Shown one piece after another: positions 4,157 through 55,546 of a stretch of 64,000 nucleotides of DNA. A program made the position numbers and the translations under genes. Location of the stretch: NCBI GenBank assembly GCA_000092065.1, contig CP000593.1; one strand, 5' to 3'. Below the pieces are notes generated by a model that saw only the letters and a list, made by a program, of their open reading frames with translations, had not been told where the DNA came from and made no database searches. Every line of letters begins with the position of its first letter. Position 1 is the stretch's first letter. Source of the stretch: Ostreococcus lucimarinus. Lineage: Eukaryota.

Positions 4157-4273
4157 TGAGTTGATCGTTTTTTTCTCGTGTGGACGACTTTTTCGCTCGA
4201 CGCGCGTCGTCCGTCGGGCGTCGCGGTCGACGCGCGCGACGGGACGGGAGACGGCGTCGGGGGCGTGACGCGC

Positions 4274-5398
4274 ATGCGGGACGAGATCGCGCTCGTCGAG
4301 CGCGCGCGCGTGGTCGTGGCGGACGACGGCGCGCGCGCGCGGCGAGACGCGGTCGCGCGGGCGACGACGCGACGGTTGATTTTGACGTTCGAGACGACGG
4401 CGACGGCGGCGGCGGCGGGGAGCGCGGCCGAGGGTGGGACGGTGATCGAGTACGACGACGTGGCGGCGTGCGAACGAGCGCAGGAGTCGCGGTCGACGCT
4501 GGGTGGGTTGTTCAGGAGGCGCGAGCGCGGGGTGGCGCTGGTTTTGACGAGCGGGAGACGGGTGACGATCGGCGCGCGAGGGGCGAGCGCGGAGGAGGTG
4601 TGCGGGAAAATCGAGAACGCGATCGTAAAGTATAAGAGACAGAAAGCGACGGCGGCGGTGGAGACGACGCGGGAGGATGCGAGGCGGCGGGCGAGCGGCG
4701 CGTCGGCGGCGACGGCGGGCGTCGGCGGCGCGGTGAATCGACAGCTCGAACGCGCGGAGGCGACGAATAAGACGATGGACGAGGCGTTTACCGATCTCAG
4801 AGCGCTCATGGCGAAGGCTGGAGAGATGGTGACGCTCGCCGAGCGGCTCGCGGAGTCGATGGACGGGAAAGGGGAAAGTTCAGAGCTTCAGCGTCTCGTG
4901 CTCAGTCTCGGGATTACGAGTCCGGTGACGCGCGCGAACGCGGGGGCAGAGTTTCATCGAGAATTAGGTAAACAATTAGCGGATTGGATAACGCCCGTGG
5001 TGCAAAAATCGAACGGCATCATTACCGTCACCGATGCGTTCTGTTTGTTCAATCGCGCGCGAGGCACGGAGTTAGTTTCCCCGCAAGACATGCTTCGCGC
5101 GAGCGAATCGTGGGAGTCGCTCGGGGTCGATTTGCACTTGCGTAAATTTGAAAGCGGAGTGATGGTGATTCATACCGTAGAACGCACAGACGAGGAAGCG
5201 TGCGCGCGATTGCTCGCGCGATTGCCGTCTTACGAGCATTCAATCGATTCGTACGAGGCGGCGCAAATATTAGCGACGACGCCCGAAATAGCGCTCGAGT
5301 ACCTCTACATGGCAGAAAGCCGAGGCGTTTTGTGTCGAGACGACGGACCTGCGCAGATGAGATTTTATGCAAACATGTTCGAGGCTAGATTGACGTAG
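4274..5398 (+). CDS. VPS36: ESCRT-II subunit Vps36/EAP45 (GLUE-like N-terminus plus tandem winged-helix C-terminus)
   Basis: The C-terminus (NRARGTELVSPQDMLRASESWESLGVDLHLRKFESGVMVIH ... CRDDGPAQMRFYANMFE) closely parallels the human EAP45 C-terminus (CLVNRARGMELLSPEDL...CRDDSVEGLRFYPNLF). The ORF-track start 4178 is GTG; the first ATG is 4274. Confidence 0.75.
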   Translation: MRDEIALVERARVVVADDGARARRDAVARATTRRLILTFETTATAAAAGSAAEGGTVIEYDDVAACERAQESRSTLGGLFRRRERGVALVLTSGRRVTIGARGASAEEVCGKIENAIVKYKRQKATAAVETTREDARRRASGASAATAGVGGAVNRQLERAEATNKTMDEAFTDLRALMAKAGEMVTLAERLAESMDGKGESSELQRLVLSLGITSPVTRANAGAEFHRELGKQLADWITPVVQKSNGIITVTDAFCLFNRARGTELVSPQDMLRASESWESLGVDLHLRKFESGVMVIHTVERTDEEACARLLARLPSYEHSIDSYEAAQILATTPEIALEYLYMAESRGVLCRDDGPAQMRFYANMFEARLT

Positions 5399-10495: not shown

Positions 10496-11378
10496 ATGAG
10501 CGCGCAGGCGACGCGAGATCAGCTGCGGACGGCGTTCGCGGAGTTAGAGTGCGTCGCGCGATGCGATGGGATGGGATTCGAGCGACGCGAGCGACGCGAC
10601 GAGACGGAATACGCGCGAGGGACGGGACTGACGGAGCGAGCTCGCGACGCGTCGGCGCAGGGACGGATTCAAGCGTAAGGACGTTCTCGAGAGCCGCGAG
10701 ACGTCGGTGTCGAGCGGACACTTGAAAAAGTTGACCAATAAAATGGCGGAGAGTAAAAAGCTGATCAAGGAGTTTGAGAGACGGGCGCTGAGCGAAGGGG
10801 CCATGGACGCGAACGCGTTGGCGGCGGCGAAGAAGGAATACGTGTCGAGGTTGAACAAGTTTGTGCAGATGAAGAAGGAGGCGCAGATTGCGATCGCGGA
10901 GAAACAAGAAGAGAGGAAGAGCGAGGTTGGTAGTCAGGGCGGGGAAGCGAGCACGTCGGGAGGGGTGACGACGTCGACGACGGCTACGTCGACGGCGTTT
11001 ACGTTGCCGGCGTTCCGGCCAAAGCCAAAGGGGGAGATTGTAGAGGATGAGCAGTTGCAACTCATGGAGGCTGGGGATTTGATTGATCACGGTAGGAACG
11101 TCATGGACCAAACGGATAAGAGCATCATGCGAAGCGAAGCGGTGGTTGAGGAGACGATTCAAATAGGGACGCAAACCGCCGAGGCGTTGCGCGGGCAGAC
11201 AAAACAACTGGAGAAAATCGTAGATGATCTCGATGAAATCCACTTTTCGTTGAAAAAGTCGTTTGGCGTGCTGAAGGACATCACCCGTGGGTTAGCGACG
11301 GATAAGTGCATCATGCTCTTGCTCTTTTTGGTCGTCGTCGGCGTAGTTGTGGTCATCATTACGAGGTTCGTGAAGTAG
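10496..11378 (+). CDS. NPSN-type Qb-SNARE (novel plant SNARE family), two exons: join(10496..10548,10661..11378)
   Basis: Exon 2 gives the SNARE motif and tail anchor (DLDEIHFSLKKSFGVLKDITRGLATDKCIMLLLFLVVVG), near-identical in pattern to plant NPSN11 (ELDSIHFSLKKASKLVKEIGRQVATDKCIMAFLFLIVIG). The ORF-track start 10707 lacks the N-terminal helix. Exon 1 (MSAQATRDQLRTAFAEL-E) joins in frame (phase 2) across a 112-nt GTGCGT...GCGCAG intron. Confidence 0.8.
10549..10660 (+). mobile_element. Introner-like element forming the SNARE intron (112 nt)
   Basis: GTGCGTCGCGCGATG...GACGCGAGCGACGCGACGAGACGG...GGGACTGACGGAGCGAGC...GTCGGCGCAG. Shares the donor, the CGACG repeats, the GGGACTGACGG box and the terminus with the other four introns. 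Confidence 0.75.
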
Positions 11379-23011: not shown

Positions 23012-24691
23012 TTACGGTGCGCCTTCGGCGGAGCAAAGGAAAGGATCTAAAGGCTTCCCAAGCGCATACACAATGAAACCAATGTCCTTCAACTTCTGGT
23101 GGTCCAAGATGAGGCGGCCGTCGAACACAAAGGCCGGCTTTTGCATGACGCCATAGATCGCTTCCCAGTCGTACGTCTTGAACTCGTCCCATTCCGTCAT
23201 AATGCACACGGCGTGCGCACCAGTCAAAGACTCAGTGTGAGTCTTGCAGCACGTGATGGATTTCATCGCTTCCTCGCCCATGTCCAACGCGATTTGCGCC
23301 GCAGCAACCTTCGGGTCATAAATATTGAGCTTCGCACCGTCTTCGATGAGGCCGTGACCGACGTCGATAGCCGGAGACTCACGAGTATCACCCGTATCTT
23401 TCTTAAAAGCGTAACCGAGCATTGAAATCTTCTTGCCGCTGATCGTGTTGAACATGGCGGAAATCATGCGCTTGACGAAGCGGCTCTTTTGGTAGTCGTT
23501 CATGCCGACAACGCTGTGCCAGTACTCCGCCACTTCCGGCAAGCCGTGGCACTCACAAATGTATGCCAAGTTTAAGATATCCTTTTGGAAGCACGAGCCA
23601 CCGAAACCGACCGAGGCGTTCAAAAATTTGGAGCCGATACGCGTGTCGGTGCCGATGGCGTGCGAAACTTGCTGGACATCCGCGCCGGTCGCTTCACAAA
23701 GCGCGCTCATGGCGTTGATGGAAGAAATGCGCTGCGCCAAGAATGCGTTCGCAGCGAGCTTTGAGAGCTCGGCAGACCACAAGTTAGCGGTCAGAATGTT
23801 CTCTTTCGGTACCCAGTTGGAGTACACGCCTACGAGCGCGTCCACCGCCGCTTGACCTTTGGCGTTTTCAATCTTACCCCCGATCAACACGCGATCGGGC
23901 GCATCCAAGTCTACAATGGCCGTACCTTCGGCCAAGAATTCTGGGTTGGACAAGATGTCGAATCGCACGCCGTCGTGCGGGCAGTTGCGCTGGAGCACCT
24001 TTTCAATGGCCTCCGCCGTTCGCACGGGCACCGTAGACTTCTCAACGATGATCTTATCACTCTCGGAGCACGCCGCGATGGTGCGCGCCGCCAACTCCCA
24101 GTACGTCAAATCCGCCGCCTTACCTTTTCCTAAACCAGTCTTCTTCGTCGGCGTGTTCACGGAGACGAAAATCATCTCGCAGTCTCGAATAGCCCCTTCG
24201 ACATCCGTCGAAAAGAACAAGTTCTTCCCTCTGCACTCGAACACGATCTCATCCAACCCGGGCTCATAAATCGGCAGCTCGCTCGAGTTCCACGCGTCGA
24301 TCCTCGGCTGCGAGATGTCCACCACCGTGACCGAGATCTGCGGGCACTTCTTCGCGATCATCGCCATCGTCGGCCCGCCCACGTATCCCGCGCCGATGCA
24401 ACATACTGCGTCGTCCCCGAAACCGCGCGCGTCGTCAGTCCTTCGTCCTCGCGCGCCTCCATTCGCACCGTCGCGCGCTCTCCCATCTTTCGCGCCCGTC
24501 CCAACGCTCTCCCGTCGCCGTCGTCGCGTCTCCGGTCGTCGCCGCGTCTCGCGGATGGTTTCCGGACATCTTTCCGACGACCGTCGCGATCGCCCTCGTC
24601 GCGTCGTCTCGCGCGTCGCGTCGTCTCGCGTCGCGTCGCGTCGCGTCGCTCGCGTCGTTCTTCACGCACTCGTCGTGATCGGCCTCGTCAT
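23012..24691 (-). CDS. UGDH: UDP-glucose 6-dehydrogenase, two exons: join(complement(23012..24405),complement(24670..24691))
   Basis: [19 protein letters not shown] catalytic motif and NAD-binding [12 protein letters not shown]. The ORF-track start is a GTG inside the Rossmann motif, with no in-frame ATG upstream. A 22-nt exon 1 (ATG ACG AGG CCG ATC ACG ACG A) plus a phase-1 264-nt intron gives [20 protein letters not shown]. Confidence 0.88.
24406..24669 (-). mobile_element. Introner-like element forming the UGDH intron (264 nt, longest copy)
   Basis: Minus-strand sequence: GTGCGTGAAGAACGACGCGAGCGACGCGACGCGACGCGACGCGAGACGACGCGACGCGCGAGACGACGCG...GGACTGACGACGCGCGCGGTTTCGGGGACGACGCAG. Confidence 0.85.
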
Positions 24692-27062: not shown

Positions 27063-29150
27063 ATGGAGTGGACGACGCGCGACGTCGCCGCGGACCCGCG
27101 CGCGACGCGCGCGCGCTGGACGCGCTCGGCGGCGGAAACATCGTCCGGGAGCGGTGCGGACGATGGATTCTTCGCGTCGTGGTCGACGCCCGTGTTCGTC
27201 GTCGCGGCGTGCGTCGCGGCGCTCGCCGTGGCGCGATTCGCCGATCGTCGGGTCGGCGCGGCCGTGCGCGCGCACTGTTTCGTCGCGTGGACGCTGGCGC
27301 TGATCATGGTGGGGATCGTGCCGACGGATGTGACGGCGACGCTGCGCGCGGGAGAGGCGCCGCGCGGGTTGGACGCGACGTGGGACGTCGCGTACTGGAG
27401 TACGTACGCGCTGACGTGGATCGTGCTGCCGCTGCACCAGTGTTACGTGGACGCGGCGGATTTTTCGTCCGTGGGACGATTGAAGAGAGCGGCGCGGGAG
27501 AACGCGATGTTTTTGGGAATCGCGGCGACGGCGATGTTCGTGGGCGCGGCGGCGCTGTTGGCGACCGAGTCGCTGTCTTTGGACGCGATGCGCGCGTATG
27601 GGATCGTGGTGGCGAACGTGTGGGGTATTTCGACCGGGGTTTTACTCATGGGGTTTGGTTTGGTGGACGTGCCGCGGGCGATTTGGCGGCGAGCGGCGTT
27701 TAATAATCGTCTCACGCGGTCGTACAAGCGCGTCGCCGGAGTGTCGCGGGCGCTCGGTAACGCTCACGCGCGCTTGGCACGGCAAGTTGTGGCGGTAACG
27801 ACGACGAGTCGAGTGATGCCACGGCGACATAGTTTGCGTTGGGCGATGAGCGTCATCGAAAACGAGACGCCAGAGTTCTCAGAAATGCACCGAGGAAGCT
27901 TAGATGAAGCGTTGGACGCGACAGAGGAAGACGTGCTGGATTACGATTACGATGAGTTGAACGATTTAGTTGCGCTGCGTCGCGCGGTTCGCCGTTCGCT
28001 GAGGCAGTACGATCGCACTAAGGCGCAGTACGTGATAGCGGTGAAGGATGCGTTTGAAGCGGAAGCCGCCGAGCAATCGCGGGCATCGTCAACTCGACGA
28101 TTGCATCGCCCGCCAAACTCGGTATCTCGTAGCGGCTCGCTCGGAAAGTGTATGGATGATGTGCAGTACACGTGGTCGATCGTCATCGTGCCCGTCCTCT
28201 TGAGAGTCATCGCCACTGGTTTGGCCTTTTTTTCGGTATCCATCATCATCGCAGAGAGCAGTATTTGGATCGGGAAACTGTGGGAAGAGGCGGATCAGAT
28301 ATCTCTTTTGAGCGTGATGCTGGAAAACGCTGAAGATTCGACATCGGGTTTGACCTCCATGCACGTCGTCGTGGCGTTTCCGCTCGCTTACATGTGCCTT
28401 TGCACGTTTCATTCCCTCCACAAGCTGGGCATGTTTTCGTTTTACACGCTCGTGCCTCGACACACGGATGCGTTTTCGCTCTTGGTGAACGCGAGTCTGG
28501 TATGCCGTTACTCAGCGCCGCTGAGTTTCAACTTTCTCATGCTTTTGCCCATTATTCGCGCGAGTGGCAAGATGACAACCTTCTCACGGAAGATGGCCAA
28601 CAACGTCCCAGAGCTCGCGGGTGAGCTGAACATCATCGTGCCCACGTTTTTGGGCTTGTACTGCGTCGCCATCGCCCTCGGCTGGTTCGACCGCATCGCA
28701 CGCGTACTCAACGTGGAGGGGTTTAAATTCGATAGCGACAAAGACGTGAATGAGAGCACGGAAACTGGAAAGTCAATCGTAGACAGGGAACGCGCCGAAG
28801 TCATGGACGGCGCCGAAATCGGAAGCTCGCACGAATCTTTCGTCTCTGAGACTGCGCCTCGCGAGCAAAGGCTTCCGCCAATTGCTTCGAATAGTAACGA
28901 GTGGAACGACGTCGAGCACGACGCTCGAGGAGGTCTGCTATCGACCTATCCCGATCCGGAATCCGCGAGCGCACGGTGGGAGACGCAAAAAGCCCGTCTC
29001 GCCCAAGCCACGCAAGCGAGCGCCGCAAGAGCCGTACCGCGCGGGTCGCCGCTCTCGCGAACTGGTCGAGACAAAGTGAGCGAACTCGACTTCATGTTCT
29101 CGAACCTCGGTCGCCGCAGCAGCGGCGGTGAATCGTTCTCGGATGAATGA
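27063..29150 (+). CDS. LMBR1-domain multi-pass membrane protein (LMBRD2-like)
   Basis: TWDVAYWSTYALTWIVLPLHQCYVDAADFSSVGRLKRAARENAMFLGI resembles the LMBRD2 family signature (LPmmQsYedsGdFt..klk). Central coiled-coil loop, then further TM helices. ATG at 27063. Confidence 0.72.
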   Translation: MEWTTRDVAADPRATRARWTRSAAETSSGSGADDGFFASWSTPVFVVAACVAALAVARFADRRVGAAVRAHCFVAWTLALIMVGIVPTDVTATLRAGEAPRGLDATWDVAYWSTYALTWIVLPLHQCYVDAADFSSVGRLKRAARENAMFLGIAATAMFVGAAALLATESLSLDAMRAYGIVVANVWGISTGVLLMGFGLVDVPRAIWRRAAFNNRLTRSYKRVAGVSRALGNAHARLARQVVAVTTTSRVMPRRHSLRWAMSVIENETPEFSEMHRGSLDEALDATEEDVLDYDYDELNDLVALRRAVRRSLRQYDRTKAQYVIAVKDAFEAEAAEQSRASSTRRLHRPPNSVSRSGSLGKCMDDVQYTWSIVIVPVLLRVIATGLAFFSVSIIIAESSIWIGKLWEEADQISLLSVMLENAEDSTSGLTSMHVVVAFPLAYMCLCTFHSLHKLGMFSFYTLVPRHTDAFSLLVNASLVCRYSAPLSFNFLMLLPIIRASGKMTTFSRKMANNVPELAGELNIIVPTFLGLYCVAIALGWFDRIARVLNVEGFKFDSDKDVNESTETGKSIVDRERAEVMDGAEIGSSHESFVSETAPREQRLPPIASNSNEWNDVEHDARGGLLSTYPDPESASARWETQKARLAQATQASAARAVPRGSPLSRTGRDKVSELDFMFSNLGRRSSGGESFSDE

Positions 29151-29673: not shown

Positions 29674-29936
29674 CACCGTCGGTCGCGCGACACAGCGCCG
29701 CGCGCCGGCGTCTGCGGCGTCGCGCGATGTCCGCGTCGGTCGACGCGCGCGCGCGCGCGCCGACGACGCGGTGGACATCGCGCGCGACGACGCGCGCGGC
29801 GACGAACGGCGCGGCGCGCGCGCGGCGAAGGAGTCGCGAGGGAATCGCGCGGGCATTCAATTCCGGCGGCGGCTCGACGACGCGCCGCGGACGCGCGCTT
29901 CGCGTCGCTCGACGCGGTGCGGACGCGGACGACGCT

Positions 29937-30737
29937 ATGATGGACGACGACGACGACGACGACGCGAGCGCGAGCGCGTCGGGACGCGCGGCCGAGGACG
30001 CGCGGTGGCTGGACGAGGACGAGGCGCGACGCGCGCGAGGGGCGACGGCGTCGGCGTCGACGCGACAACGGCGAGCGGCGCGAAGGGAACCGCGAGAGCG
30101 ACGAAACGAGCGACGGGATCGAGGTGGAGCGCGACCGAACGTGCTGGTGCTGACGCAGCGGGATTACGAACGCGTGCTGCCCATCGCGGCGACGGGGGAG
30201 CAATACGGGTACTTTTGGGGGGATAACGATACCGCGTTTCAACGCGTGGGGTTGTCGCTGTTGACGACGGTGTTGACCGCGAATGCGGCGCCGGCGCTCG
30301 CCGTGCCCGCGAGCACGTTTTTTTTGTGGGCACCCGTGGCGTTAGCGGCGCGACGTAACTCAAAGGTGCGAAGCGCTAAATACGCGGGCCTGTGGCGCGC
30401 CAGAGTCATCTCAGTCGAGCCCGTGGAGACGCGCGGGACGTCGAGCGTAGATTGGATGTTTAACCTAGTCGTCGGAGATAGATCCGGGGCGCGAGTACCG
30501 CTGAAAGTTCCTTTAAAAGCGGAGTACGCGGATATCAACGTAGGCGACGACGTCGAGCTCATCGTGACATCAGACGACCCGTACTTTTACACGTTTCAAG
30601 CCGTTCGCGAGGCGTATTTTCCGTTCCTTAACGTCTGGGTGGGCGAGTATCCGTTCCTCGACCGTCGTGGGATGGTGAGCGTGAGCGATCGTTTAGCCGG
30701 GGAAGAGGAGGCGCGTCGCGCCAGGGCGAGAGGATAA
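29937..30737 (+). CDS. Hypothetical protein (poly-Asp N-terminus, conserved-looking C-terminal 200 aa), unassigned
   Basis: MMDDDDDDD...NVLVLTQRDYERVLPIAATGEQYGYFWGDN...DPYFYTFQAVREAYFPFLNVWVGEYPFLDRRGMV. Non-repetitive. No family recognised. Confidence 0.4.
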   Translation: MMDDDDDDDASASASGRAAEDARWLDEDEARRARGATASASTRQRRAARREPRERRNERRDRGGARPNVLVLTQRDYERVLPIAATGEQYGYFWGDNDTAFQRVGLSLLTTVLTANAAPALAVPASTFFLWAPVALAARRNSKVRSAKYAGLWRARVISVEPVETRGTSSVDWMFNLVVGDRSGARVPLKVPLKAEYADINVGDDVELIVTSDDPYFYTFQAVREAYFPFLNVWVGEYPFLDRRGMVSVSDRLAGEEEARRARARG

Positions 30738-30778
30738 ACTGATAAAAGCGCCGCACTTACACTGCAATAGAACACTAC

Positions 30779-31427
30779 TCACTTCTCGTCCAATTCGTCC
30801 ATCATCTTCTCCAGCTCGCTCGCCGGCATTTCTTCCAAACGCTTTTGCATCACCGCGTTTTCGTACTGTTTAACCATCGTCGAAACGAAACGTCTGAGCG
30901 TCAGTCTTCGGTTCGCGTTTTCTTTCTCCTTCGCGTTTCGTCTCGCGCTCTCGCCTCGTTCGCTTCGCACGCACATCCTTCAACTGCTTCGCGTAAGTCA
31001 TGTCCTTATTGAACACTCGCATGACGTACGACCCCACCCACGCGAGCGTCAATCCGAGCACGAACGTCAACTGCACCGCGTTGCCCGCCTTCGTCGAATC
31101 CATCCCCGCGAACGATTGCAACCCGTAGTACGCCGCGAATCCCGCGCCCGTGACCCCGGTCCCGATCAGCATCACGTCCGCGCGCGTGTACCCGAACGGC
31201 ACGTCGCCTTCATCGTCCGCGGGCGTCGCGCGCGTGCGCGTGGTCTTCCCGACGCGCGGCGATTCCAGCCTTCGCGTCGTCGTCATCGTCTTCGTCGTCG
31301 CGCGCGCGCGCGTCGCGCTCGACCGCGCGGCCGCGAACACGCCGCGCGCGCGTCGCGTCGTCGCGCGTCGCGTCGTCGCGCATCGCGCCGTCGTCGTCGT
31401 CGCGCGCGTCGTCGTCGCGAACGTCAT
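30779..31427 (-). CDS. Small two-TM membrane protein of cyanobacterial/plastid-lineage type (DUF3007-like, tentative), two exons: join(complement(30779..30865),complement(30975..31427))
   Basis: The ORF track splits it into two frames (30870..31427 and 30779..30976). A 109-nt intron with GTGCGT donor, CTGAC branch box and AACAG acceptor joins ...MTYAKQLKD to YENAVMQKRLEEMPASELEKMMDELDEK in phase 0. T/R-rich transit-like N-terminus. Confidence 0.65.
30866..30974 (-). mobile_element. Introner-like element forming the DUF3007-like gene intron (109 nt)
   Basis: Minus-strand sequence: GTGCGTGCGAAGCGAACGAGGCGAGAGCGCGAGACGAAACGCG...GAAGACTGACGCTCAGACGTTTCGTTTCGACGATGGTTAAACAG. Shares GTGCGTGCGA, GCGAACGA, GCGCGAGACGA, GACTGACG and CGATGGT with the other copies. 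Confidence 0.7.
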
Positions 31428-31699
31428 CGTCTCGATCGATGATGCGTCGACGAATGGCGCGACGCCGCAGAGCGCGCCTCGCCGCGGGCGCGATGCGCGC
31501 GACGCCGGCGACGCGCGCGAGCGGGGACTCCGAGCGCGGCGCGCGCGACGCGATCGCCGCCGCCGCCGCCGACGCGTCGGTCCCGACGGTCGATGACGCG
31601 AACGACGACGACGACGCGAACGATGTCGACGCCGACGCCGACGCGCGACGCCGACGCGCGGGCGACGACGCGAACGCGTCTCGAGCGACGCGCGCCTCG

Positions 31700-32989
31700 A
31701 TGACGCCGGCGCGCGCGCTGTACGCGCGCTTCGTCGCCGTGGGCGTGGGGACGCTGTTCCCGTGGAACGTCTTCATCACCGAGCGCGCGTACTTCGCGCG
31801 ACGGTTCGCGAACGATGGCGCGAACGATGGGTCGTTCTTCGCGGCGAATTTCGAAGGGACGTTCGCGAACGCGTACGCGCTGAGCAATCTGATCGGATGC
31901 GCGGGGTTGGTGAAATATGGGGACGCGCGCGGCGCGGCGACGGGTTCGCGAGCGACGGCGAGCGCGCTGGGAATCGCGGCGGTGGGGATATGGACGTGTG
32001 GGGTCGTCGCGGGCGTGGAACGGGTGAAAATGGACGTCGTATTCGCGCAGACGCTAGGGGTGATCGTGGTGGTCGGATTGGCGACGGCGGTGGCGCAGTC
32101 CGGGGGGTTCGCGCTCGCGAGTCGGTTGCCGCCCGAGTTCGCGCAGGGCGCGATGAGCGGGCAGGCGGTGAGTGGGGTGGTGGTTTCTTTGGTGGCGCTG
32201 GCGACGACTGCGTATGGTGGGGGATCAGTTTCGTCCTCGTCGTCCGCGAAAGGCGCACAGGCGTATTTTTACGTCGCCGCGGCGGTGGTGCTGGGTTGCG
32301 CGGCGACGGCGGCGCGATTGGACAAGACGCCCGCATTCGAAGAGCTCACTGGGGTCGAGCGGCATCGAGATGGGCGCCGGTCGGAGATGAACGCGCTCCT
32401 ACGGGATGATGACGTCGATGAGTACGACAGCGACGTCGAGGGCGCGCCGTTGAGAGCTTCCACAGGCGTGGAGGATTTCGGCGACGAGAGTCGCGATTAT
32501 AGACTCGCCGTCGCGTTGACGTTTATCGCCAGCCTCTGCGCGTTTCCGGCAATCACGAGCTCAATCGAGAGCTCGCACGGCGCAATGGGAGCGTTTTGGT
32601 CGCCGGTATTATTCTTACTCTTCAACTTGGGCGATTTTCTCGGCCGACATCTGGCTGGAATGTATCCCAAGACGCCGCCGAGAGGCGCGTCGTTGCGGCG
32701 CGCGGCGACGCTTCGATTCGCCTTCATCCCGTTTCTCGCCGCCTGCAACGTCACCACGCCGAACTGGCGCGTGCCCACCGTGTTTGCGTCCGACTTCTTC
32801 CCCTTCCTCTTCATATCCGCCCTCGCGGTGACGAATGGTTGGCTCGCGAGCGTCGCCATGATGCACGGCGCCAGCCGCGCGCCGCTCTCAAAACGTCAAG
32901 CCGAGGGCGTCGTCCTCAGCTTTGCCCTCGTCGCCGGTATATTCCTCGGCACTGCATTGTCTCTGTTCATTGTATTCATATTATCTTAG
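31700..32989 (+). CDS. Equilibrative nucleoside transporter (ENT/SLC29 family)
   Basis: LYARFVAVGVGTLFPWNVFITERAYF is the ENT TM1 signature, followed by 11 TM-like segments, a central loop and FIPFLAACNV near the C-terminus. The ORF-track start 31439 adds an Arg/Asp-rich 87-aa extension; ATG 31700 gives a typical ~430-aa ENT. Confidence 0.8.
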   Translation: MTPARALYARFVAVGVGTLFPWNVFITERAYFARRFANDGANDGSFFAANFEGTFANAYALSNLIGCAGLVKYGDARGAATGSRATASALGIAAVGIWTCGVVAGVERVKMDVVFAQTLGVIVVVGLATAVAQSGGFALASRLPPEFAQGAMSGQAVSGVVVSLVALATTAYGGGSVSSSSSAKGAQAYFYVAAAVVLGCAATAARLDKTPAFEELTGVERHRDGRRSEMNALLRDDDVDEYDSDVEGAPLRASTGVEDFGDESRDYRLAVALTFIASLCAFPAITSSIESSHGAMGAFWSPVLFLLFNLGDFLGRHLAGMYPKTPPRGASLRRAATLRFAFIPFLAACNVTTPNWRVPTVFASDFFPFLFISALAVTNGWLASVAMMHGASRAPLSKRQAEGVVLSFALVAGIFLGTALSLFIVFILS

Positions 32990-33121: not shown

Positions 33122-35338
33122 ATGGGTCGGGGTCGATTTAACAAGCGTCGAGGAGGCGGTGGTCGCGGGAACGGTCCTCAAAGCGGCGCCTTCGCGCGCG
33201 ACTTCAAGCGACAAAAACGCGACGGCGGCGGCGGCATGGATGCGCGAGGTGAACGAGGGAACGCGCACGACGGCTATCACGACATCCAGAAGACGAACAA
33301 AGCGTTTGAGACGTACTACAAAGCCCAGAATATCGTCCCGGAGAGCGAGTGGGAGACGTTTTTGGACTGCATGCGGTCGCCGTTGCCGATGACGTTTAGA
33401 ATCAATGGAAGTGGAAAGTTCGCGACGGATATGCGAGACCAATTGGAGGGGACACTGTTCGCGGAATTGCTCAAAGAGGAATTGAAAGATGAGGAACAAA
33501 ATGAATTACCGCCGCCGAAGCCGTTGGCGTGGTATCCCGAGCGATTGGCGTGGCAGTGTAGTTATACGCGAGCGCAGTTGCGACGGTTGCCGGCGCTGCA
33601 AGGAATTTTCGACTTCATCAAGAACGCTAACGAGCTCGGGTCGATCTCTAGGCAAGAGGCAGTATCGATGATTCCTCCGTTTTTCTTGGATGCGCAACCG
33701 CATCATCGAATTTTGGACATGTGCGCGTCGCCGGGAAGCAAGACGTTTCAGATTTTGGAACGCATGCACGGTGATTTTGACGGCAACACCAAGCTTCCCA
33801 CCGGAATCGTCGTCGCCAATGACGTCGATTTGAAGCGTTGCAACTTACTGACGCATCAAACGAAGCGAGCGAACTCACCGACGTTACTCGTGACCAATCA
33901 TGAAGCGCAAAACTATCCCATCATCAAAGGCCCAAAGGGTGAACTCTTCGACTTTGACGCCATCCTGTGCGACGTACCGTGCTCGGGCGACGCGACGATG
34001 CGCAAGGCACCGGATATCTGGAACAGATGGACTCCTGGTAATGGTAACGGTTTGCATACCTTACAGCTTAGAATCGCTGCTCGCGGTGCTCAGCTCCTCA
34101 AGGTGGGCGGTCGTCTCGTGTACAGCACGTGCTCGCTGAATCCGATTGAAAACGAAGCTGTCGTGGCGGCGTTGTTGAAGGAATGCGATGGTGCTTTGGA
34201 GCTTCTCGATGTGAGTGACGAATTGCCAGACTTGAAGCGTAGCCCTGGATTGCGCGATTGGCAAGTGTGGGATAAGTTTGGCTATCACCCAAGCTTTCGA
34301 GGCGAGGAGCAAATGTTCAAGCTCTGCGAGACGATGTTCTCCGACGAAGAGACGAAGAAACTGCCGTTGGAGCGATGTCTGCGACTTTTGCCTCATCATC
34401 AAGACACTGGTGGATTCTTTGTCGCCGTATTCCAGAAAGTTAAGCCCATGGAGATCAAAGAAGACGTGAACGCAAAGAAGCAAACTGTGAAGGAGCGTGT
34501 TCGCCTTTCGCTCAACGTGAACGCGAAGAACGAGATCGAGATGTCACATGAGGTGATCACGTTGGCCCGCAAGGGTCAGACTGCGTCTATACCTCCGGAA
34601 GTCGACGACAAAGGCGAGTATTTGCTCCCACACAGAGGCGCGACGGGTCCGAACGGGGGCAGTCGATGGCTCGGCATCGATCCTGTGCTTCCGGTGAACG
34701 ATCCGAAGGTGATCAATAGCATCTACAGTGTCTACGGTATCGAAAGCGATGACATTGCGTTACACAAAAATTGTGTCACACGCACTGCGGACACTTCACG
34801 ACCGAAGCGTGTGTACACCATCACCGACTCCTTGCGCCAGTACTTAGCGTGCGACGTCAACGAAAGTCTTCGCGTGACGTCGTGCGGGCTCAAGGCGTTC
34901 GAGCGCCAGGAAATCAAGGATGAAGTCAAAGAACAAGAAGAAACTTCTGGTGCGATGTGTGATTTCCGTCTCACGCAAGACGGAATACCGATGATGTTCC
35001 CGTTCGTGAGAAAGCGCATCATTCGCCCGACTTTTGACGACTTTAAAGCCATCCTTGAACGTCGCACGTTGGCGTTTGAGTACAGCGCAGAGGCGCCGCA
35101 ACGCGCCGTCATCTCTTGCGCCGAAACCAAAAAAGCCTTGCTCGATCTCACTTTGGGATGCTGCATTCTCGTTCCTCGCGATGAAGATCTGGCCGCCATC
35201 AACGTCAGCAAGGCGGACCTCGCCATCGCGTGCTGGCGCGGTCGCACGTCATGCAACTTGTTGGTCTCCAAAGCCGAAACAATTCACTTCATCGATAAAA
35301 TCAAAGTCAACGCGGCGGTGAAGATGGACACGTCGTGA
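33122..35338 (+). CDS. NSUN2: tRNA (cytosine-5)-methyltransferase NSUN2/Trm4 (NOL1/NOP2/Sun family)
   Basis: MGRGRFNKRRGG N-terminus. ILDMCASPGSKTFQ (motif I), DAILCDVPCSGDATMRKAPDIW (motif IV, TC dipeptide), VYSTCSLNPIENEAVV (motif VI) and ERCLRLLPHHQDTGGFFVAVF, all collinear with human NSUN2. Confidence 0.92.
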   Translation: MGRGRFNKRRGGGGRGNGPQSGAFARDFKRQKRDGGGGMDARGERGNAHDGYHDIQKTNKAFETYYKAQNIVPESEWETFLDCMRSPLPMTFRINGSGKFATDMRDQLEGTLFAELLKEELKDEEQNELPPPKPLAWYPERLAWQCSYTRAQLRRLPALQGIFDFIKNANELGSISRQEAVSMIPPFFLDAQPHHRILDMCASPGSKTFQILERMHGDFDGNTKLPTGIVVANDVDLKRCNLLTHQTKRANSPTLLVTNHEAQNYPIIKGPKGELFDFDAILCDVPCSGDATMRKAPDIWNRWTPGNGNGLHTLQLRIAARGAQLLKVGGRLVYSTCSLNPIENEAVVAALLKECDGALELLDVSDELPDLKRSPGLRDWQVWDKFGYHPSFRGEEQMFKLCETMFSDEETKKLPLERCLRLLPHHQDTGGFFVAVFQKVKPMEIKEDVNAKKQTVKERVRLSLNVNAKNEIEMSHEVITLARKGQTASIPPEVDDKGEYLLPHRGATGPNGGSRWLGIDPVLPVNDPKVINSIYSVYGIESDDIALHKNCVTRTADTSRPKRVYTITDSLRQYLACDVNESLRVTSCGLKAFERQEIKDEVKEQEETSGAMCDFRLTQDGIPMMFPFVRKRIIRPTFDDFKAILERRTLAFEYSAEAPQRAVISCAETKKALLDLTLGCCILVPRDEDLAAINVSKADLAIACWRGRTSCNLLVSKAETIHFIDKIKVNAAVKMDTS

Positions 35339-36835: not shown

Positions 36836-38590
36836 ATGCGGGACGACGACGCGATGGGCGCGACGCGACTCGCGGACGCGCTCGCGGACGCGGTCGAGGA
36901 CGCGAGCGCGAGAAACGCGGGCGGGGGGGGGGGACGCGCGGGACGCGCGCGCGCGAAGACGAATGGGAAGAGCGCGCGACCGAGGTTGAACGACGCGGGC
37001 GCGCACTTGAGAGTGCTGCTGGCGACGGACGACGCGCACACGCGAAAGATGGTGGAATCGATGCTGCGCGAGCTCGGGGTGGAGGTGGTGGCGGCGACGA
37101 ATGGGAACGAAGTCTTGGACGTCTTGCGGGGGGCGCCGAAGAGCGCGAGGGAGGACACGTCGGTGGATATGATTTTGCTCGACGTGTTGATGCCCGAACT
37201 CGACGGGGAAGTCGAACTGGTGGAGGCGTGTAAGGCGAACGAAACCCTGCGCGGGGTGCCGATCGTCATCATGTCCACCGTGGACGAGCGCAAGGCGTGC
37301 AAGACGCGATTTGAAAATTCGGGCGCCGCCGGTTTCTTGACGAAACCGGTGAACCGCATCGAGTTGAAGGAGAGCTTGGCGCACACGCGGGCGTTAAAAA
37401 GCCACGAAAGTGGTAGCGTTGAAGGTGAGGGTTCGGGTTCGGGGAACTGCATGGATCCAAACGACAACGTCGGCGGGAGCGCAAAGTCGTCGCTCACCAA
37501 GCTCACGAGCAGGGAAAAAGTCGCGGGGGGCTCGGGCGGTGGGCAAAACGATTCGGGGAGCGATAATCAATACAACGAAAAACCGCTCACGAGACGCGCC
37601 GAAGCCGAAGCGATCGATCGATGGGCCAGTCGCGAGGGTGGGTCGGGAGACTGCGGCTCGGGCGGCTCGGGTCAAGGCACGGGAAGCGGTAGCGGCTCCC
37701 ACGAAGGCTCGGGGTCGGGCCAGCGTGATCCAAACGACGGCGAAAAGTTCCGCGGCTTGAGCGTGCAACTCATCAAGGCGCACGGTGGGGCAACGACTAT
37801 GCTCGAACTCTCTTTACCAGAGCACGCGTCTGAGCACGTCGTCGTTCGACGATCAAACTCGCGTTCGGCGTTCAAGGGGTTTCAAAACTACCTTAAGAAC
37901 GAAAACAAGGATACCGCGGTGCAAATGATGAGCGTTGACTTGACGCAGCAGCATCACTCGTTTTATGAAGCGTCTTCCATGATGCCACCGTCAGATTTCG
38001 CCAAATTTTACGGACCGATTATGCCGAAGATGGAAATGCCCGTGCCGCCGCCGATGCCGCCGTACGCCGATATGAACCAATTCTCCGCCGCCGCCGCCGC
38101 CGCCGCCGCGGTGGCGGCGTCTTCGGTCGACGCTTCAGTGATGGATCAATCGTATATGGCGAATCCGTTTTTCAACGTTTTACAAACTGCGGCCGATCAC
38201 ACCCAGCAGACGAGCTCGAGCCAAGCCGCCGAGCATCGCGCCGCGGCGATTCGACGCTTTTTGAAGAAGCGCAAGGAAAGGAACTTCGAAAAGAAAGTTC
38301 TTTACCCTTCGCGACAAAAGCTCTCGGAATCCCGTCCTCGCGTTCGCGGACAGTTCACTCGAAACAACGATGAAACGACGACGACGACGACGACGACTGA
38401 AAACGTCTCAAACGGATCGGACAACAAACCAAAGTCGAACGAAACCAACGCGAGCGAGGCGAACAAGGTCGGCGAAGTCGAAGGCAAGGGAGTGGACGAG
38501 TACGGTCACGGCTCGAACGAAGGTTCGAACGAAGGTTCGAAAGAAGGCTCCCGAAGTTCTTCCGGCGCCGAAGGCGAAGGCTCCAAGTAA
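36836..38590 (+). CDS. TOC1/PRR-like clock-type protein: N-terminal response-regulator receiver domain plus C-terminal CCT motif
   Basis: REC domain: LRVLLATDDAHTRKMV...DMILLDVLMPELDG...FLTKP. CCT: EHRAAAIRRFLKKRKERNFEKKVLYPSRQKLSESRPRVRGQFTR (cf. CONSTANS/TOC1 CCT R.RY.EKRK.R.F.K.IRY..RK..A..RPR.KGRF). Low-complexity Gly/Ser, poly-Ala and poly-Thr linkers. Confidence 0.85.
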   Translation: MRDDDAMGATRLADALADAVEDASARNAGGGGGRAGRARAKTNGKSARPRLNDAGAHLRVLLATDDAHTRKMVESMLRELGVEVVAATNGNEVLDVLRGAPKSAREDTSVDMILLDVLMPELDGEVELVEACKANETLRGVPIVIMSTVDERKACKTRFENSGAAGFLTKPVNRIELKESLAHTRALKSHESGSVEGEGSGSGNCMDPNDNVGGSAKSSLTKLTSREKVAGGSGGGQNDSGSDNQYNEKPLTRRAEAEAIDRWASREGGSGDCGSGGSGQGTGSGSGSHEGSGSGQRDPNDGEKFRGLSVQLIKAHGGATTMLELSLPEHASEHVVVRRSNSRSAFKGFQNYLKNENKDTAVQMMSVDLTQQHHSFYEASSMMPPSDFAKFYGPIMPKMEMPVPPPMPPYADMNQFSAAAAAAAAVAASSVDASVMDQSYMANPFFNVLQTAADHTQQTSSSQAAEHRAAAIRRFLKKRKERNFEKKVLYPSRQKLSESRPRVRGQFTRNNDETTTTTTTTENVSNGSDNKPKSNETNASEANKVGEVEGKGVDEYGHGSNEGSNEGSKEGSRSSSGAEGEGSK

Positions 38591-39959: not shown

Positions 39960-40152
39960 GTGCGTGCGATGCGACGCGACGCGACGCGATCGGGCGCGCG
40001 GACGACGCGGACGCGCGCGACGAGACTGCCGCGAATCGATGGAATTCCGAGGACGGTTACTAACCCGACGGAACGAATGAATCGACGCGACGCGACGCGC
40101 GGACGACGCGACGCGGAGGACTGACGACGGTACGAATCGATGGTCATCACAG
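39960..40152 (+). mobile_element. Introner-like element in the 5' region of the acyl-CoA dehydrogenase gene (193 nt)
   Basis: GTGCGTGCGATGCGACGCGACGCGACGCGATCGG...TTACTAAC...GACGCGACGCGACGCGCGGACGACGCGACGCGGAGGACTGACGACGGTACGAATCGATGGTCATCACAG. A possible exon 1 (39915..39959, MTTREPFGEGVPFGD) joins in phase 0 to 40153, 13 codons upstream of ATG 40192. Confidence 0.65.
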
Positions 40153-53944: not shown

Positions 53945-55546
53945 ATGACCGCGCCCGATCTCTCCCGCTTCGACGAAGGCTCGAGCGATGAGGACGATTT
54001 CATCGCTCGCGTGCGCGCGCGCGAGCTCGCCGAGGGCGCCGACGACGCGAGCGCCGCCGCCGACGCGTCGCCGCCGACGACGAGCGGCGGCGGCGGCGAC
54101 GATAAAACCGACGCCGACGCGCGCGTGAGCGCGAATCGCGCGTCCAAGCTCGAACGCGCGCGAGAAAAGAAGCGCAAGGCCAAGCAAGCGCGCGCAAAAC
54201 GGCGTAAACTGGAAGAGGGACGACCGCGAGGAACGGACGAGACGGAAGGCGGCGGCGACGCGGCGAACGCCGACGACGAAGACAAGGTGTTCCACGGCAC
54301 GTTTAACGTCGAGGGCGTGGTGATGAACGACGAATTAGTGCTCGTGGATAAAAAGTCTAAAGCCGTGTACTCGAGCACGGAGCGTACGGCGAATGGGGAA
54401 CACGTCAGGATCGGGACGTGGGACGACGCGACGCAGAGCTATACGTATTGGAAACCGGCGGAGAAGAAAAAGGATGAGAGAAAAGAGAAAGGGGCGGTTT
54501 TGAACGAGCGTGGGGAGACGATACCGGCGATCTTTAAGGGGAACGCGAAGTTAGCGGAAGAATTTAAGGCGCCGGCGGAGGTAGAGCATCCGTTCGAGAC
54601 GGACGCGGACGACCACTGCGAGACGTCGCCTGAGGCGCACGAAAACGTAGCGAATTTCTTAAAGGCGGCGTGCGGGCGCTTGAATAAAACGCCCGCCGAC
54701 CTGGTGATTTATGACCCTTACTACTGCGCCGGAGGTACGCGAAGGAACTTGGCTTTGATTGGATTCACGAACGTCATCAATCGCAACGAAGATTTTTACA
54801 AAGTCATCGAAGAGGGGCGCGTGCCCGAGCACGACGTCTTCCTGACAAATCCACCGTACTCTGCTGACCACATAGAGAAGTGCGTGACGTTTGCGGCAGA
54901 AAATCTTGCTGCACACGGCCGTCCGTACATGCTGCTCTTGCCCTCGTACGTCATTCACAAGGATTACTACCTGCCCGCGTTGCTCACGGGCGGCTCGCGA
55001 GGGAAGGAAAAGGCGAAATCGCTCGAGCTTCAGCGCAAAGACGAGGAAAACAACGAAGATGACGTCGAGGAGAATGACGATGGTATCAAGCGTCACGGTG
55101 GTGGTGCCGCTCGAGCGCAAATCTTGCCATTCTACATCGCGCCGAAGAAGCGTTATTATTATTGGACACCCAAGGCGATGGTGAAGGCGCGCGCCGCCAA
55201 AGGTCAAAGCGAAGAAAGCGCCAAGGCGCGTCGCAAGCGAACGCACATAGGCGCCCTGGGTGAACGTACCTCACCGTTTCTGTCGTTCTGGTACTGCTGT
55301 TTCGGGTCGATGCAGCGCGATGTGTTGGCGTGGCACAAAAAGTTGCCTCGTAGCGAAGTTTGGGGGTACGTGGTGGCGCGACACCCGAACGATTTGCCGC
55401 TCGCCGTGCTAGACGAATGGGATCCGCGCAGGATCGCCGCCATGGAAAAAGCCAAGGCTGATGGAGTGGAAATCCCGCAGCTTAGTTCGTACGCCGGTTT
55501 TACCGGCGCCGCGCAATCCCCAGCCAAGAAGAAATTCTACAAATGA
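53945..55546 (+). CDS. Putative amino-group (N6-adenine/N2-guanine class) methyltransferase-like protein with acidic/KR-rich flanks
   Basis: DLVIYDPYYCAGGT (DPxCGxG-like motif I) followed 43 aa later by FLTNPPYS (motif IV NPPY). N-terminus has nuclear-localisation-like KKRKAKQARAKRRK. Function is inferred only from these motifs. Confidence 0.5.
   Translation: MTAPDLSRFDEGSSDEDDFIARVRARELAEGADDASAAADASPPTTSGGGGDDKTDADARVSANRASKLERAREKKRKAKQARAKRRKLEEGRPRGTDETEGGGDAANADDEDKVFHGTFNVEGVVMNDELVLVDKKSKAVYSSTERTANGEHVRIGTWDDATQSYTYWKPAEKKKDERKEKGAVLNERGETIPAIFKGNAKLAEEFKAPAEVEHPFETDADDHCETSPEAHENVANFLKAACGRLNKTPADLVIYDPYYCAGGTRRNLALIGFTNVINRNEDFYKVIEEGRVPEHDVFLTNPPYSADHIEKCVTFAAENLAAHGRPYMLLLPSYVIHKDYYLPALLTGGSRGKEKAKSLELQRKDEENNEDDVEENDDGIKRHGGGAARAQILPFYIAPKKRYYYWTPKAMVKARAAKGQSEESAKARRKRTHIGALGERTSPFLSFWYCCFGSMQRDVLAWHKKLPRSEVWGYVVARHPNDLPLAVLDEWDPRRIAAMEKAKADGVEIPQLSSYAGFTGAAQSPAKKKFYK

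What the first reader, a model, noticed from the sequence alone, without database searches (positions are those of the whole stretch)
30779..31427. Frame-split small plastid-type membrane protein repaired by a 109-nt introner
Two overlapping minus-strand ORFs in different frames (30870..31427 and 30779..30976) look like one gene. Exon 1 ends ...AKQLKD at a GTGCGT donor. The AACAG acceptor joins YENAVMQKRLEEM...ELDEK in phase 0. My recollection is that the (Y)AKQLKDYE...QKRLEEL pattern is typical of a small cyanobacterial/plant DUF3007-type protein. The family name is from memory and needs confirmation.
Basis: partly seen in the sequence, partly recalled or inferred. Interest (0 to 1): 0.55.

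Follow-up and report, generated by a model that had tools for sequence, protein, structure and literature searches.

The report
Ordinary intron in an Ostreococcus CPLD38/DAC gene
The two out-of-frame ORFs are one real gene for a small thylakoid-type membrane protein (DUF3007, the CPLD38/DAC family) in Ostreococcus lucimarinus, split by a normal single-copy 109-nt spliceosomal intron rather than a mobile "introner", and this splice is already in the public annotation.

Summary
The minus-strand ORFs 30870..31427 and 30779..30976 join across a 109-nt GT-AG intron (30866..30974) in phase 0. The product is 179 aa.

Splicing raises the Pfam DUF3007 score from 83.6 to 117.9 bits. It restores eight residues that are invariant across green algae and plants.

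The window is Ostreococcus lucimarinus CCE9901, not Micromonas. The same junction is already in RefSeq: XP_001421107.1 is exactly the spliced product read from Met48.

The family is CPLD38 (Chlamydomonas) / DAC (Arabidopsis), thylakoid proteins needed for cytochrome b6f accumulation.

The "introner" label is not supported:
- The intron has the standard Mamiellophyceae signals (GTGCGT, GACTGACG, CAG).
- No second copy was found in the 64-kb window.
- Exact 26-mer scans found only the orthologous locus in metagenomes and nothing in viral contigs.
- It has no terminal inverted repeats, no target-site duplication and no unusual fold.

What is mildly interesting is the intron's history. It is present in three related O. 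lucimarinus-type lineages, with lengths of 109 to 132 nt that cover all three reading-frame classes. It is precisely absent from O. tauri, Bathycoccus, M. pusilla, other Ostreococcus-like lineages and Marchantia. That pattern points to one lineage-specific gain.

The RefSeq start at Met48 may be too short. Overall this is ordinary and low interest.

The parts
30975..31427 (-). Exon 1 of the DUF3007 (CPLD38/DAC-type) gene, read from the first ATG (Met1). It encodes residues 1-151 and ends ...MTYAKQLKD.
   Evidence: Pfam DUF3007 match begins at residue 81.
31284..31286 (-). Alternative start codon Met48. This is the start used by the RefSeq model XP_001421107.1 (132 aa).
   Evidence: The 132-aa spliced product read from this ATG is an exact match to XP_001421107.1/ABO99400.1. 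The Met1 version (179 aa) is not in the protein collection.
31203..31427 (-). N-terminal presequence region, residues 1-75. It is T/R/A-rich (23 T, 15 R, 14 A; 17 basic and 5 acidic residues) and predicted disordered. It is a putative plastid/thylakoid targeting sequence.
   Evidence: Composition. AlphaFold pLDDT is below 50 for residues 14-76. Orthologues carry 42-99 aa presequences before VPFGYTR. Targeting itself was not tested.
31107..31184 (-). Predicted helix 1, residues 82-107 (first transmembrane helix).
   Evidence: AlphaFold2 model helix H82-107. Hydropathy peak around residue 94.
31011..31079 (-). Hydrophobic part of predicted helix 2, residues about 117-139 (second transmembrane helix). 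The helix continues to residue 163 across the splice junction.
   Evidence: Model helix H111-163. Hydropathy peak at residues 123-131.
30866..30974 (-). 109-nt phase-0 spliceosomal intron, GC 55% against 69% in exon 1. The 5' two-thirds is purine-rich and the sequence is single-copy.
   Evidence: No other copy in the window. All 5 metagenome hits are the orthologous locus. Natural length variants are 109, 110, 111 and 132 nt.
30969..30974 (-). 5' splice site GTGCGT.
   Evidence: It matches the canonical Micromonas donor consensus AG|GTGCGT (PMC3879977).
30899..30906 (-). Branch-point motif GACTGACG. The branch A is at 30901, 35 nt before the last intron base.
   Evidence: [quoted passage not shown]
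30866..30868 (-). 3' splice site CAG.
30779..30865 (-). Exon 2: 28 codons (YENAVMQKRLEEMPASELEKMMDELDEK) plus the TGA stop (30779..30781). It encodes the acidic C-terminal helix.
   Evidence: The peptide is conserved in all intron-bearing lineages. The tail has 9 D+E against 4 K+R.

Best explanation
This is the nuclear gene for the Ostreococcus lucimarinus orthologue of CPLD38 (Chlamydomonas) / DAC (Arabidopsis At3g17930). These are small DUF3007 membrane proteins with an N-terminal targeting presequence, two transmembrane helices and a conserved acidic C-terminal helix. In Chlamydomonas and Arabidopsis the protein sits in the thylakoid membrane and is needed for normal accumulation of the cytochrome b6f complex.

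The coding sequence is interrupted after codon 151 by one ordinary U2-type spliceosomal intron of 109 nt (GTGCGT ... GACTGACG ... CAG). Removing it joins KQLKD to YENAVMQKRLEE in phase 0 and completes the conserved C-terminal helix. Without splicing the protein would end in an unconserved basic tail.

The intron is single-copy, not a repeated or mobile introner. It was most likely gained once in the ancestor of the O. lucimarinus group, after that group split from the other Ostreococcus lineages. It has since drifted by substitutions and purine-tract slippage.

Shown here: ORF geometry, splice signals, family membership, identity with the RefSeq model, presence/absence across lineages, and absence of other copies. 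Inferred: actual splicing in vivo, plastid targeting, the b6f-related function, and gain rather than repeated loss.
For: Family. Pfam PF11460 scores 117.9 bits spliced against 83.6 unspliced, with profile coverage 2-95/96 against 2-78/96. Exon 2 supplies 8 invariant residues. The AlphaFold2 model has one helix, 111-163, running through the junction. Chlamydomonas CPLD38 is annotated DUF3007 (PMC8448359). CPLD38/DAC function comes from PMC3591612.

Organism and prior annotation. There are exact matches to O. lucimarinus CCE9901 XP_001420969.1 and XP_001420957.1. The Met48 spliced product equals XP_001421107.1.

The intron is non-coding. Natural variants are 109, 110, 111 and 132 nt long, so all three frame classes occur. 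The read-through tails differ between variants, while the exon-2 peptide is conserved. Against lineage L002, the intron is 88% identical with 10 gaps, and the flanking exons are 96-97% identical with none. Against lineage L006, the intron is 62% identical with 37 gaps, and the exons are 86% and 92% identical.

Canonical signals. GTGCGT, GACTGACG and CAG are present, as described for Mamiellophyceae. Three other candidate introns in the window use the same signals and restore ORFs, but are otherwise unrelated in sequence.

Single copy. Only the self-hit is significant in the window. A metagenome scan for the 3' 26-mer followed by a non-orthologous base gave 0 hits. An interior 26-mer gave 5 hits, all flanked by DUF3007 exons. 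Viral contigs gave 0.

History. The intron is precisely absent (AAGGAT|TACGA contiguous) in O. tauri, Bathycoccus, M. pusilla and metagenomic lineages L007/L009. The gene tree groups the three intron-bearing lineages together. Marchantia has no intron at this site.
Against: No RNA evidence was available, so splicing is inferred from conservation and signals. The RefSeq model is itself a prediction.

The complete 13-Mb genome could not be scanned. The test for extra copies rests on 64 kb of genome plus exact-match scans of metagenome and viral collections, so a diverged low-copy family could be missed.

The gene tree uses only about 309 nt of one gene, and the lineages behind loci L006, L007 and L009 are unnamed.

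The start codon (Met1 or Met48) is unresolved. Plastid targeting was not predicted with a dedicated tool.
Confidence: 0.9

Rival explanations
1. The intron is an introner: a copy of a repeated, mobile intron-generating element like the Micromonas IE families or transposon-type introners, which inserted into this gene.
For: The position is lineage-specific and absent from close relatives, as expected for introner insertions. It carries the GACTGACG branch motif, which is also conserved in Micromonas IE-C.
Against: The host is Ostreococcus, not Micromonas. No Ostreococcus introners are mentioned in the papers read. No second copy was found in 64 kb by blastn-short, nhmmer or profile nhmmer. Exact-match scans gave 0 non-orthologous copies in metagenomes and 0 hits in viral contigs. 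There are no terminal inverted repeats (7/20 matches) and no target-site duplication. There is no 5'ss-complementary hexamer. The fold z-score is 0.01. The GACTGACG motif is also the canonical Ostreococcus branch site. At 109 nt it is longer than the IE-C average of 67 nt.
Confidence: 0.04
2. There is no splicing. The gene makes the 185-aa read-through protein with a basic tail (...KQLKDVRAKRTRRERETKREGERKREPKTDAQTFRFDDG), or the frame split is a sequencing error or a pseudogene.
For: Prokaryote-style gene callers on metagenome contigs report the read-through ORF many times (P0001, P0227 and others). Intron retention at some level cannot be excluded.
Against: The same 109-nt sequence occurs in independent metagenome assemblies, so it is not a sequencing error. 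The read-through tail has no homologues and changes frame and length between natural variants. The downstream, out-of-frame exon-2 peptide is conserved and holds invariant family residues. Splice signals are perfect. Read-through loses 17 of 96 profile positions.
Confidence: 0.02
3. The intron is ancestral to Mamiellophyceae or older. It was retained only in the O. lucimarinus group and lost independently everywhere else, rather than gained.
For: Intron loss is common in these compact genomes. An older intron position (K|VPFGYT, phase 0), shared by M. pusilla and Marchantia, has indeed been lost in Ostreococcus and Bathycoccus.
Against: This needs at least four independent precise losses (the L007/L009 lineage, O. 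tauri, Bathycoccus, M. pusilla) against one gain. Marchantia has no intron at this site; its nearest one is 7 codons downstream at VMQ|KRL.
Confidence: 0.1

Closest known systems
RefSeq XP_001421107.1 / GenBank ABO99400.1, predicted protein (UniRef: 'Transmembrane protein'), Ostreococcus lucimarinus CCE9901
   Same: It is the same locus with exactly the same splice junction. The 132-aa sequence is identical to the window's spliced product read from Met48.
   Different: The annotated start is Met48. The longest ORF starts 47 codons upstream at Met1, giving a 75-aa presequence that is closer in length to most orthologues (42-99 aa). Which start is used is unknown.
CPLD38 (Chlamydomonas Cre01.g000850) / DAC (Arabidopsis At3g17930), thylakoid proteins required for cytochrome b6f accumulation
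   Same: Same Pfam family, DUF3007. Same architecture: presequence, two transmembrane helices, and a conserved acidic C-terminal helix.
   Different: No function has been tested in Ostreococcus. The Chlamydomonas and Arabidopsis sequences were not aligned directly here; the link runs through Pfam and land-plant homologues.
Ostreococcus tauri XP_003082649.2 'Protein of unknown function DUF3007' (172 aa)
   Same: It is the orthologue. Of the flanking genes, the unnamed ORF, MaoC and LMBR1 on one side keep their order; the gene on the other side is not the ENT transporter. The mature domain is about 80% identical at the nucleotide level.
   Different: It is intronless, with a contiguous 519-nt CDS. 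AAGGAT is followed directly by TACGAG.
Canonical (singleton) Mamiellophyceae spliceosomal introns
   Same: GTGCGT donor, GACTGACG branch motif, CAG acceptor, and no similarity to other introns.
   Different: The donor context is GAT|GT rather than AG|GT. The motif lies 41 nt from the acceptor, against 43-52 nt reported for Micromonas. [quoted passage not shown]
Micromonas introner elements (IE-A/D-IE, IE-C/ABC-IE)
   Same: Short sense-strand introns at lineage-specific positions, with strong splice signals.
   Different: Those are repeated tens to thousands of times per genome with high mutual identity. This one is single-copy and sits in a genus for which the papers read mention no introners.

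Membership tests
DUF3007 / CPLD38 / DAC protein family (Pfam PF11460) | Significant match to the PF11460 profile above the gathering score | tested here: met
   117.9 bits against a cut-off of 25, E = 2.4e-34, profile positions 2-95 of 96.
DUF3007 / CPLD38 / DAC protein family (Pfam PF11460) | Two transmembrane helices followed by a conserved acidic C-terminal helix | tested here: met
   AlphaFold2 helices 82-107, 111-163 and 166-178. Hydropathy peaks at about 94 and 123-131, and a tail with 9 D+E against 4 K+R. The architecture is as described for CPLD38.
DUF3007 / CPLD38 / DAC protein family (Pfam PF11460) | Family-invariant residues present, including the KQLKDYE..VM.KR.E motif | tested here: met
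   All 31 invariant columns of alignment A1 are present in the spliced product. Eight of them lie in exon 2.
DUF3007 / CPLD38 / DAC protein family (Pfam PF11460) | N-terminal plastid transit peptide and thylakoid localisation | tested here: inconclusive
   The presequence is T/R/A-rich, basic and predicted disordered, which is consistent with targeting. No targeting predictor or localisation data were available.
DUF3007 / CPLD38 / DAC protein family (Pfam PF11460) | Required for cytochrome b6f accumulation | not testable with these tools
   Known only from Chlamydomonas and Arabidopsis mutants (PMC3591612).
Introner elements / introners | Many copies in the same genome with clear sequence similarity to one another | tested here: not met
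   Only the self-hit in the 64-kb window. No non-orthologous copies in exact 26-mer scans of metagenome contigs, and no hits in viral contigs. Limit: the whole genome was not searchable.
Introner elements / introners | Transposon hallmarks (terminal inverted repeats, target-site duplication) or a 5'ss-complementary segment | tested here: not met
   Ends match 7/20 as inverted repeats. There is no duplication of 2-8 nt at the boundaries and no [AG][CT]GC[AG]C hexamer. Fold z-score is 0.01.
Introner elements / introners | Intron at a position not shared with orthologues in related species | tested here: met
   Absent in O. tauri, Bathycoccus, M. pusilla, L007/L009 and Marchantia. This feature is not specific to introners.
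Canonical Mamiellophyceae spliceosomal intron | GT-AG boundaries with a GTGCGT donor and an NCTGAC/GACTGACG branch motif a few tens of nt before the acceptor | tested here: met
   GTGCGT at 30974..30969, GACTGACG at 30906..30899 (41 nt from the acceptor), CAG at 30868..30866. The consensus is from PMC3879977.
Canonical Mamiellophyceae spliceosomal intron | Actually removed from the mRNA | not testable with these tools
   No RNA data were available. Indirect support: the RefSeq model uses this junction, frameshifting intron variants coexist with a conserved exon 2, and invariant residues are restored.

The most novel reading that the evidence does not exclude
The intron is a datable, recent gain inside the genus Ostreococcus, on the branch to the O. 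lucimarinus group. It could be the lone survivor or first detected member of an unrecognised low-copy intron-generating element in a genus thought to lack introners. Alternatively it arose by a non-transposon route. A stretch of the intron interior, GAAGGAGAAAGAAAACGCG, weakly resembles the spliced junction GAAGGAT|TACGAAAACGCG (16/19 identical), but the alignment score is not significant (p about 0.13).
Probability: 0.05. Interest if true: 0.45.

Novelty: already known. Interest (0 to 1): 0.1.

Why it matters
It matters little. The gene, its splice junction and its family are already in public databases, and the family's role in cytochrome b6f accumulation is published for Chlamydomonas and Arabidopsis.

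Three minor points have some value:
1. The reference model may start 47 codons too late, which would affect targeting predictions.
2. This is a clean presence/absence case of a single-copy intron among closely related Ostreococcus lineages. Natural length polymorphism of 109 to 132 nt makes it usable as a marker or as a small case study of intron gain without introners.
3. Prokaryote-style gene calls on marine metagenomes systematically report a truncated read-through version of this protein.

Tried and rejected
- **Introner hypothesis.** I searched for other copies with blastn-short and nhmmer, the repeat finder, profile nhmmer built from five intron variants, two metagenome scans and one viral scan. 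Only the orthologous locus turned up.
- **Transposon features.** Terminal inverted repeats, target-site duplication and a 5'ss-complementary segment are all absent.
- **Non-coding RNA inside the intron.** Rfam gave nothing significant (best hit mir-598, E = 0.16, outside the intron). The fold z-score is 0.01.
- **Origin by local duplication.** Small repeats exist between the intron interior and the exon junction, but the alignment score is not significant against random window segments or shuffles (p about 0.13).
- **Ancient intron shared with plants.** The nearest Marchantia intron is 7 codons downstream, so the position is not shared.
- **Micromonas pusilla as the source.** Rejected. The CCMP1545 orthologue is only 72% identical and has no intron at this site.
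- **Other databases.** NCBIfam gave no match. PDB gave no significant match; weak PsaK hits at E about 0.07 are treated as chance.
- **Locating XP_001421107.1 on its contig.** The protein is not on record in the position index.

Full report
**1. The observation**

One search lists the two minus-strand ORFs exactly as reported: 30870..31427 (185 aa) and 30779..30976 (65 aa). Reading the minus strand and cutting it in silico gives three pieces:
- Exon 1 is 31427..30975 (453 nt, a multiple of 3) and ends AAG GAT (K D).
- The intron is 30974..30866 (109 nt). It starts GTGCGT and ends AACAG.
- Exon 2 is 30865..30779. It starts TAC GAA AAC and ends with TGA.

**2. Is the join real?**

Against Pfam, the spliced product matches DUF3007 (PF11460) at 117.9 bits (E = 2.4e-34) over profile positions 2-95 of 96. 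The read-through ORF scores 83.6 bits and stops at profile position 78.

I aligned 25 homologues from prasinophytes, bryophytes and angiosperms. Eight invariant columns (Y152, E153, V156, M157, K159, R160, E162, E168) lie in exon 2.

An AlphaFold2 model built from that alignment has mean pLDDT 60.5, with 67-87 over the membrane domain. It shows helices at 82-107, 111-163 and 166-178, so the junction (151|152) lies inside one continuous helix. Residues 14-76 are disordered.

The spliced tail is acidic (9 D+E, 4 K+R). The read-through tail is basic (13 K+R).

**3. Population evidence that the 109 nt are non-coding**

Close relatives recovered from metagenomes carry an intron at the same site. 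Their lengths are 109, 109 (a different internal arrangement), 110, 111 and 132 nt, which covers all three classes modulo 3. The differences come mainly from slippage in a purine tract.

The read-through peptides therefore differ in frame and length. Examples are ...KEKERKKENANAKTDAQTFRFDDG...KEKEKKERKRERED, and a 217-aa in-frame version. In every case the exon-2 peptide stays YEN/DAVMQKRLEEMP.SELEKMM..LDEK.

| Comparison with the window | Intron identity | Intron gaps | Last 300 nt of exon 1 | Exon 2 |
|---|---|---|---|---|
| Lineage L002 | 88% | 10 | 96% | 97% |
| Lineage L006 | 62% | 37 | 86% | 92% |

No RNA data were available, so splicing in vivo remains inferred.

**4. Organism and prior annotation**

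Exact-sequence look-ups show that ORFs of the window equal RefSeq proteins of Ostreococcus lucimarinus CCE9901. For example, 53945..55543 equals XP_001420969.1 and 27063..29147 equals XP_001420957.1. So the window is Ostreococcus, not Micromonas.

The Micromonas pusilla CCMP1545 orthologue is only 72% identical.

The spliced product read from Met48 (132 aa) is exactly XP_001421107.1 / ABO99400.1. The junction is therefore already in the reference annotation. The full-length Met1 version is not in the collection.

Orthologues have 42-99 residues before the conserved VPFGYTR. That fits Met1 (75 residues) better than Met48 (28 residues), but the start remains open.

The divergent ENT transporter ORF starts only 11 nt from Met1. 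Its conserved part begins near its Met88, so there is no real conflict.

**5. What the protein is**

Chlamydomonas CPLD38 (Cre01.g000850) is annotated DUF3007 (PMC8448359).

According to PMC3591612, CPLD38 has a transit peptide and signal sequence, two transmembrane helices and a conserved acidic coiled-coil C-terminus. It is found in thylakoid membranes and is encoded next to ndhL in most cyanobacteria. Its loss cuts cytochrome b6f by about 85%.

The Arabidopsis orthologue DAC (At3g17930) behaves similarly and interacts with PetD.

The Ostreococcus protein has the same architecture. Its function is inferred by homology only.

Part of the gene order is conserved with O. tauri (the unnamed ORF, MaoC, LMBR1). 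The full order (NSUN2, ENT, DUF3007, unnamed ORF, MaoC, LMBR1) is shared with several metagenomic Ostreococcus-like lineages.

No solved structure and no NCBIfam model matches.

**6. Is the intron an introner?**

Published Micromonas introner elements are repeated introns. There are thousands in CCMP1545 and about 200 IE-C/ABC-IE copies averaging 67 nt in RCC299. Canonical introns, by contrast, are singletons with an AG|GTGCGT donor and an NCTGAC branch motif. GACTGACG is the extended branch sequence of canonical Ostreococcus introns (PMC3879977 and PMC4540971).

The intron here has GTGCGT, GACTGACG (branch A 35 nt from the 3' end) and CAG.

Searches for further copies gave the following:
- blastn-short and nhmmer found only the self-hit in the window.
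- A profile built from five natural variants also found only itself (E = 4.8e-32; next best E = 0.2).
- The repeat finder returned only GC-rich low-complexity families.
- A metagenome scan for the last 26 nt followed by any base other than the orthologous T found nothing.
- A scan with an interior 26-mer found five contigs, all flanked by the DUF3007 exons.
- Viral contigs gave nothing.

The intron also lacks mobile-element features. It has no terminal inverted repeats, no target-site duplication and no 5'ss-complementary hexamer. Its fold is no better than shuffles (z = 0.01), and Rfam finds nothing.

Three other candidate introns in the window share the same signals, and each restores an ORF after a short first exon. 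They are + 10549..10660, + 39960..40152 and - 24406..24669. They resemble this intron only in low-complexity GCGACGCGA runs.

The large introner survey I read does not mention Ostreococcus in its main text. In the two supplement passages displayed, Ostreococcus appears only in a list of TARA MAGs; 7 occurrences were counted and the stored file is cut.

The introner label is therefore not supported. The limit of this test is that the whole genome could not be searched.

**7. History of the intron**

The site is contiguous (AAGGAT|TACGA) in five lineages:
- O. tauri, with a 519-nt intronless CDS.
- Bathycoccus, with a 441-nt intronless CDS.
- M. pusilla CCMP1545.
- Two metagenomic Ostreococcus-like lineages, L007 and L009.

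No flanking base is changed in any of them.

A neighbour-joining tree of the mature-domain CDS groups the three intron-bearing lineages (CCE9901, L002, L006). Next out are L007/L009, then O. tauri, then Bathycoccus. M. pusilla was set as the outgroup. One gain explains this pattern; retention would need at least four precise losses.

Marchantia has three phase-0 introns in its orthologue, and none is at this site. The nearest is 7 codons downstream at VMQ|KRL.

The tree rests on about 309 nt of one gene, so this history is likely rather than proven.

A short stretch inside the intron resembles the spliced junction (16/19 identical), but the score is not significant (p about 0.13).

**8. Verdict**

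The mobile-element interpretation is wrong and rests on a mistaken genus. The gene model, apart from its start, already exists in RefSeq, and the family has published functional data.

What remains is a tidy but ordinary example of a lineage-specific canonical intron in a compact green-algal genome.

Noticed in passing
window 10549-10660 (+), 39960-40152 (+), 24406-24669 (-): Three more candidate canonical introns with GTGCGT ... GGACTGACG ... CAG. Each restores an ORF after a very short first exon: MSAQATRDQLRTAFAEL|EDGFKRKD..., MTTREPFGEGVPFGD|PSWYTTFNSPYY..., and MTRPITT|[13 protein letters not shown]... (the last looks like UDP-glucose dehydrogenase).
   Followed up: partly
window-wide, e.g. 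53945-55543 and 27063-29147: Every CCE9901 protein matched in this window carries two GenBank/RefSeq accession pairs (ABO99xxx and ABP01xxx; XP_0014209xx and XP_0014229xx) and is seen on 2 contigs. The region appears to be deposited twice or duplicated in the assembly.
   Followed up: no
window 31439-32989 (+), 33122-35338 (+), 29727-30737 (+): RefSeq models are shorter than the longest ORFs: ENT nucleoside transporter 319 aa against 516, NSUN2-type methyltransferase 700 against 738, and the unnamed convergent neighbour 198 aa (partial) against 336. The ENT ORF's first ~87 codons are probably spurious upstream extension. If they were real, its ATG would lie 11 nt from the DUF3007 Met1.
   Followed up: partly
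L012 (M. pusilla CCMP1545, gene at 4001-4867) and L016 (Marchantia polymorpha): The M. pusilla orthologue has a 285-nt phase-0 intron at DEEK|VPFGYT that contains an assembly gap. Marchantia intron 1 (SDEK|IPFGYT) has the same position and phase. This looks like an old intron at the presequence/mature-domain boundary, lost in Ostreococcus and Bathycoccus.
   Followed up: partly
window 30737-30781: The stop codons of the DUF3007 gene (30779-30781, minus strand) and the convergent 336-aa ORF (ends 30737, plus strand) are only 41 nt apart, so their 3' UTRs must be very short or overlap.
   Followed up: no
window 36836-38590 (+): A 584-aa ORF that JGI names CheY-like or pseudo-response regulator 1. 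By my recollection this is probably the TOC1-like clock component of Ostreococcus.
   Followed up: no
L001-L005, L017-L023 (metagenome contigs): Prokaryote-style gene calling on marine metagenomes repeatedly reports the truncated or read-through version of this eukaryotic protein. Two clusters hold 34 and 13 variants, so protein catalogues carry a wrong C-terminus for it.
   Followed up: yes
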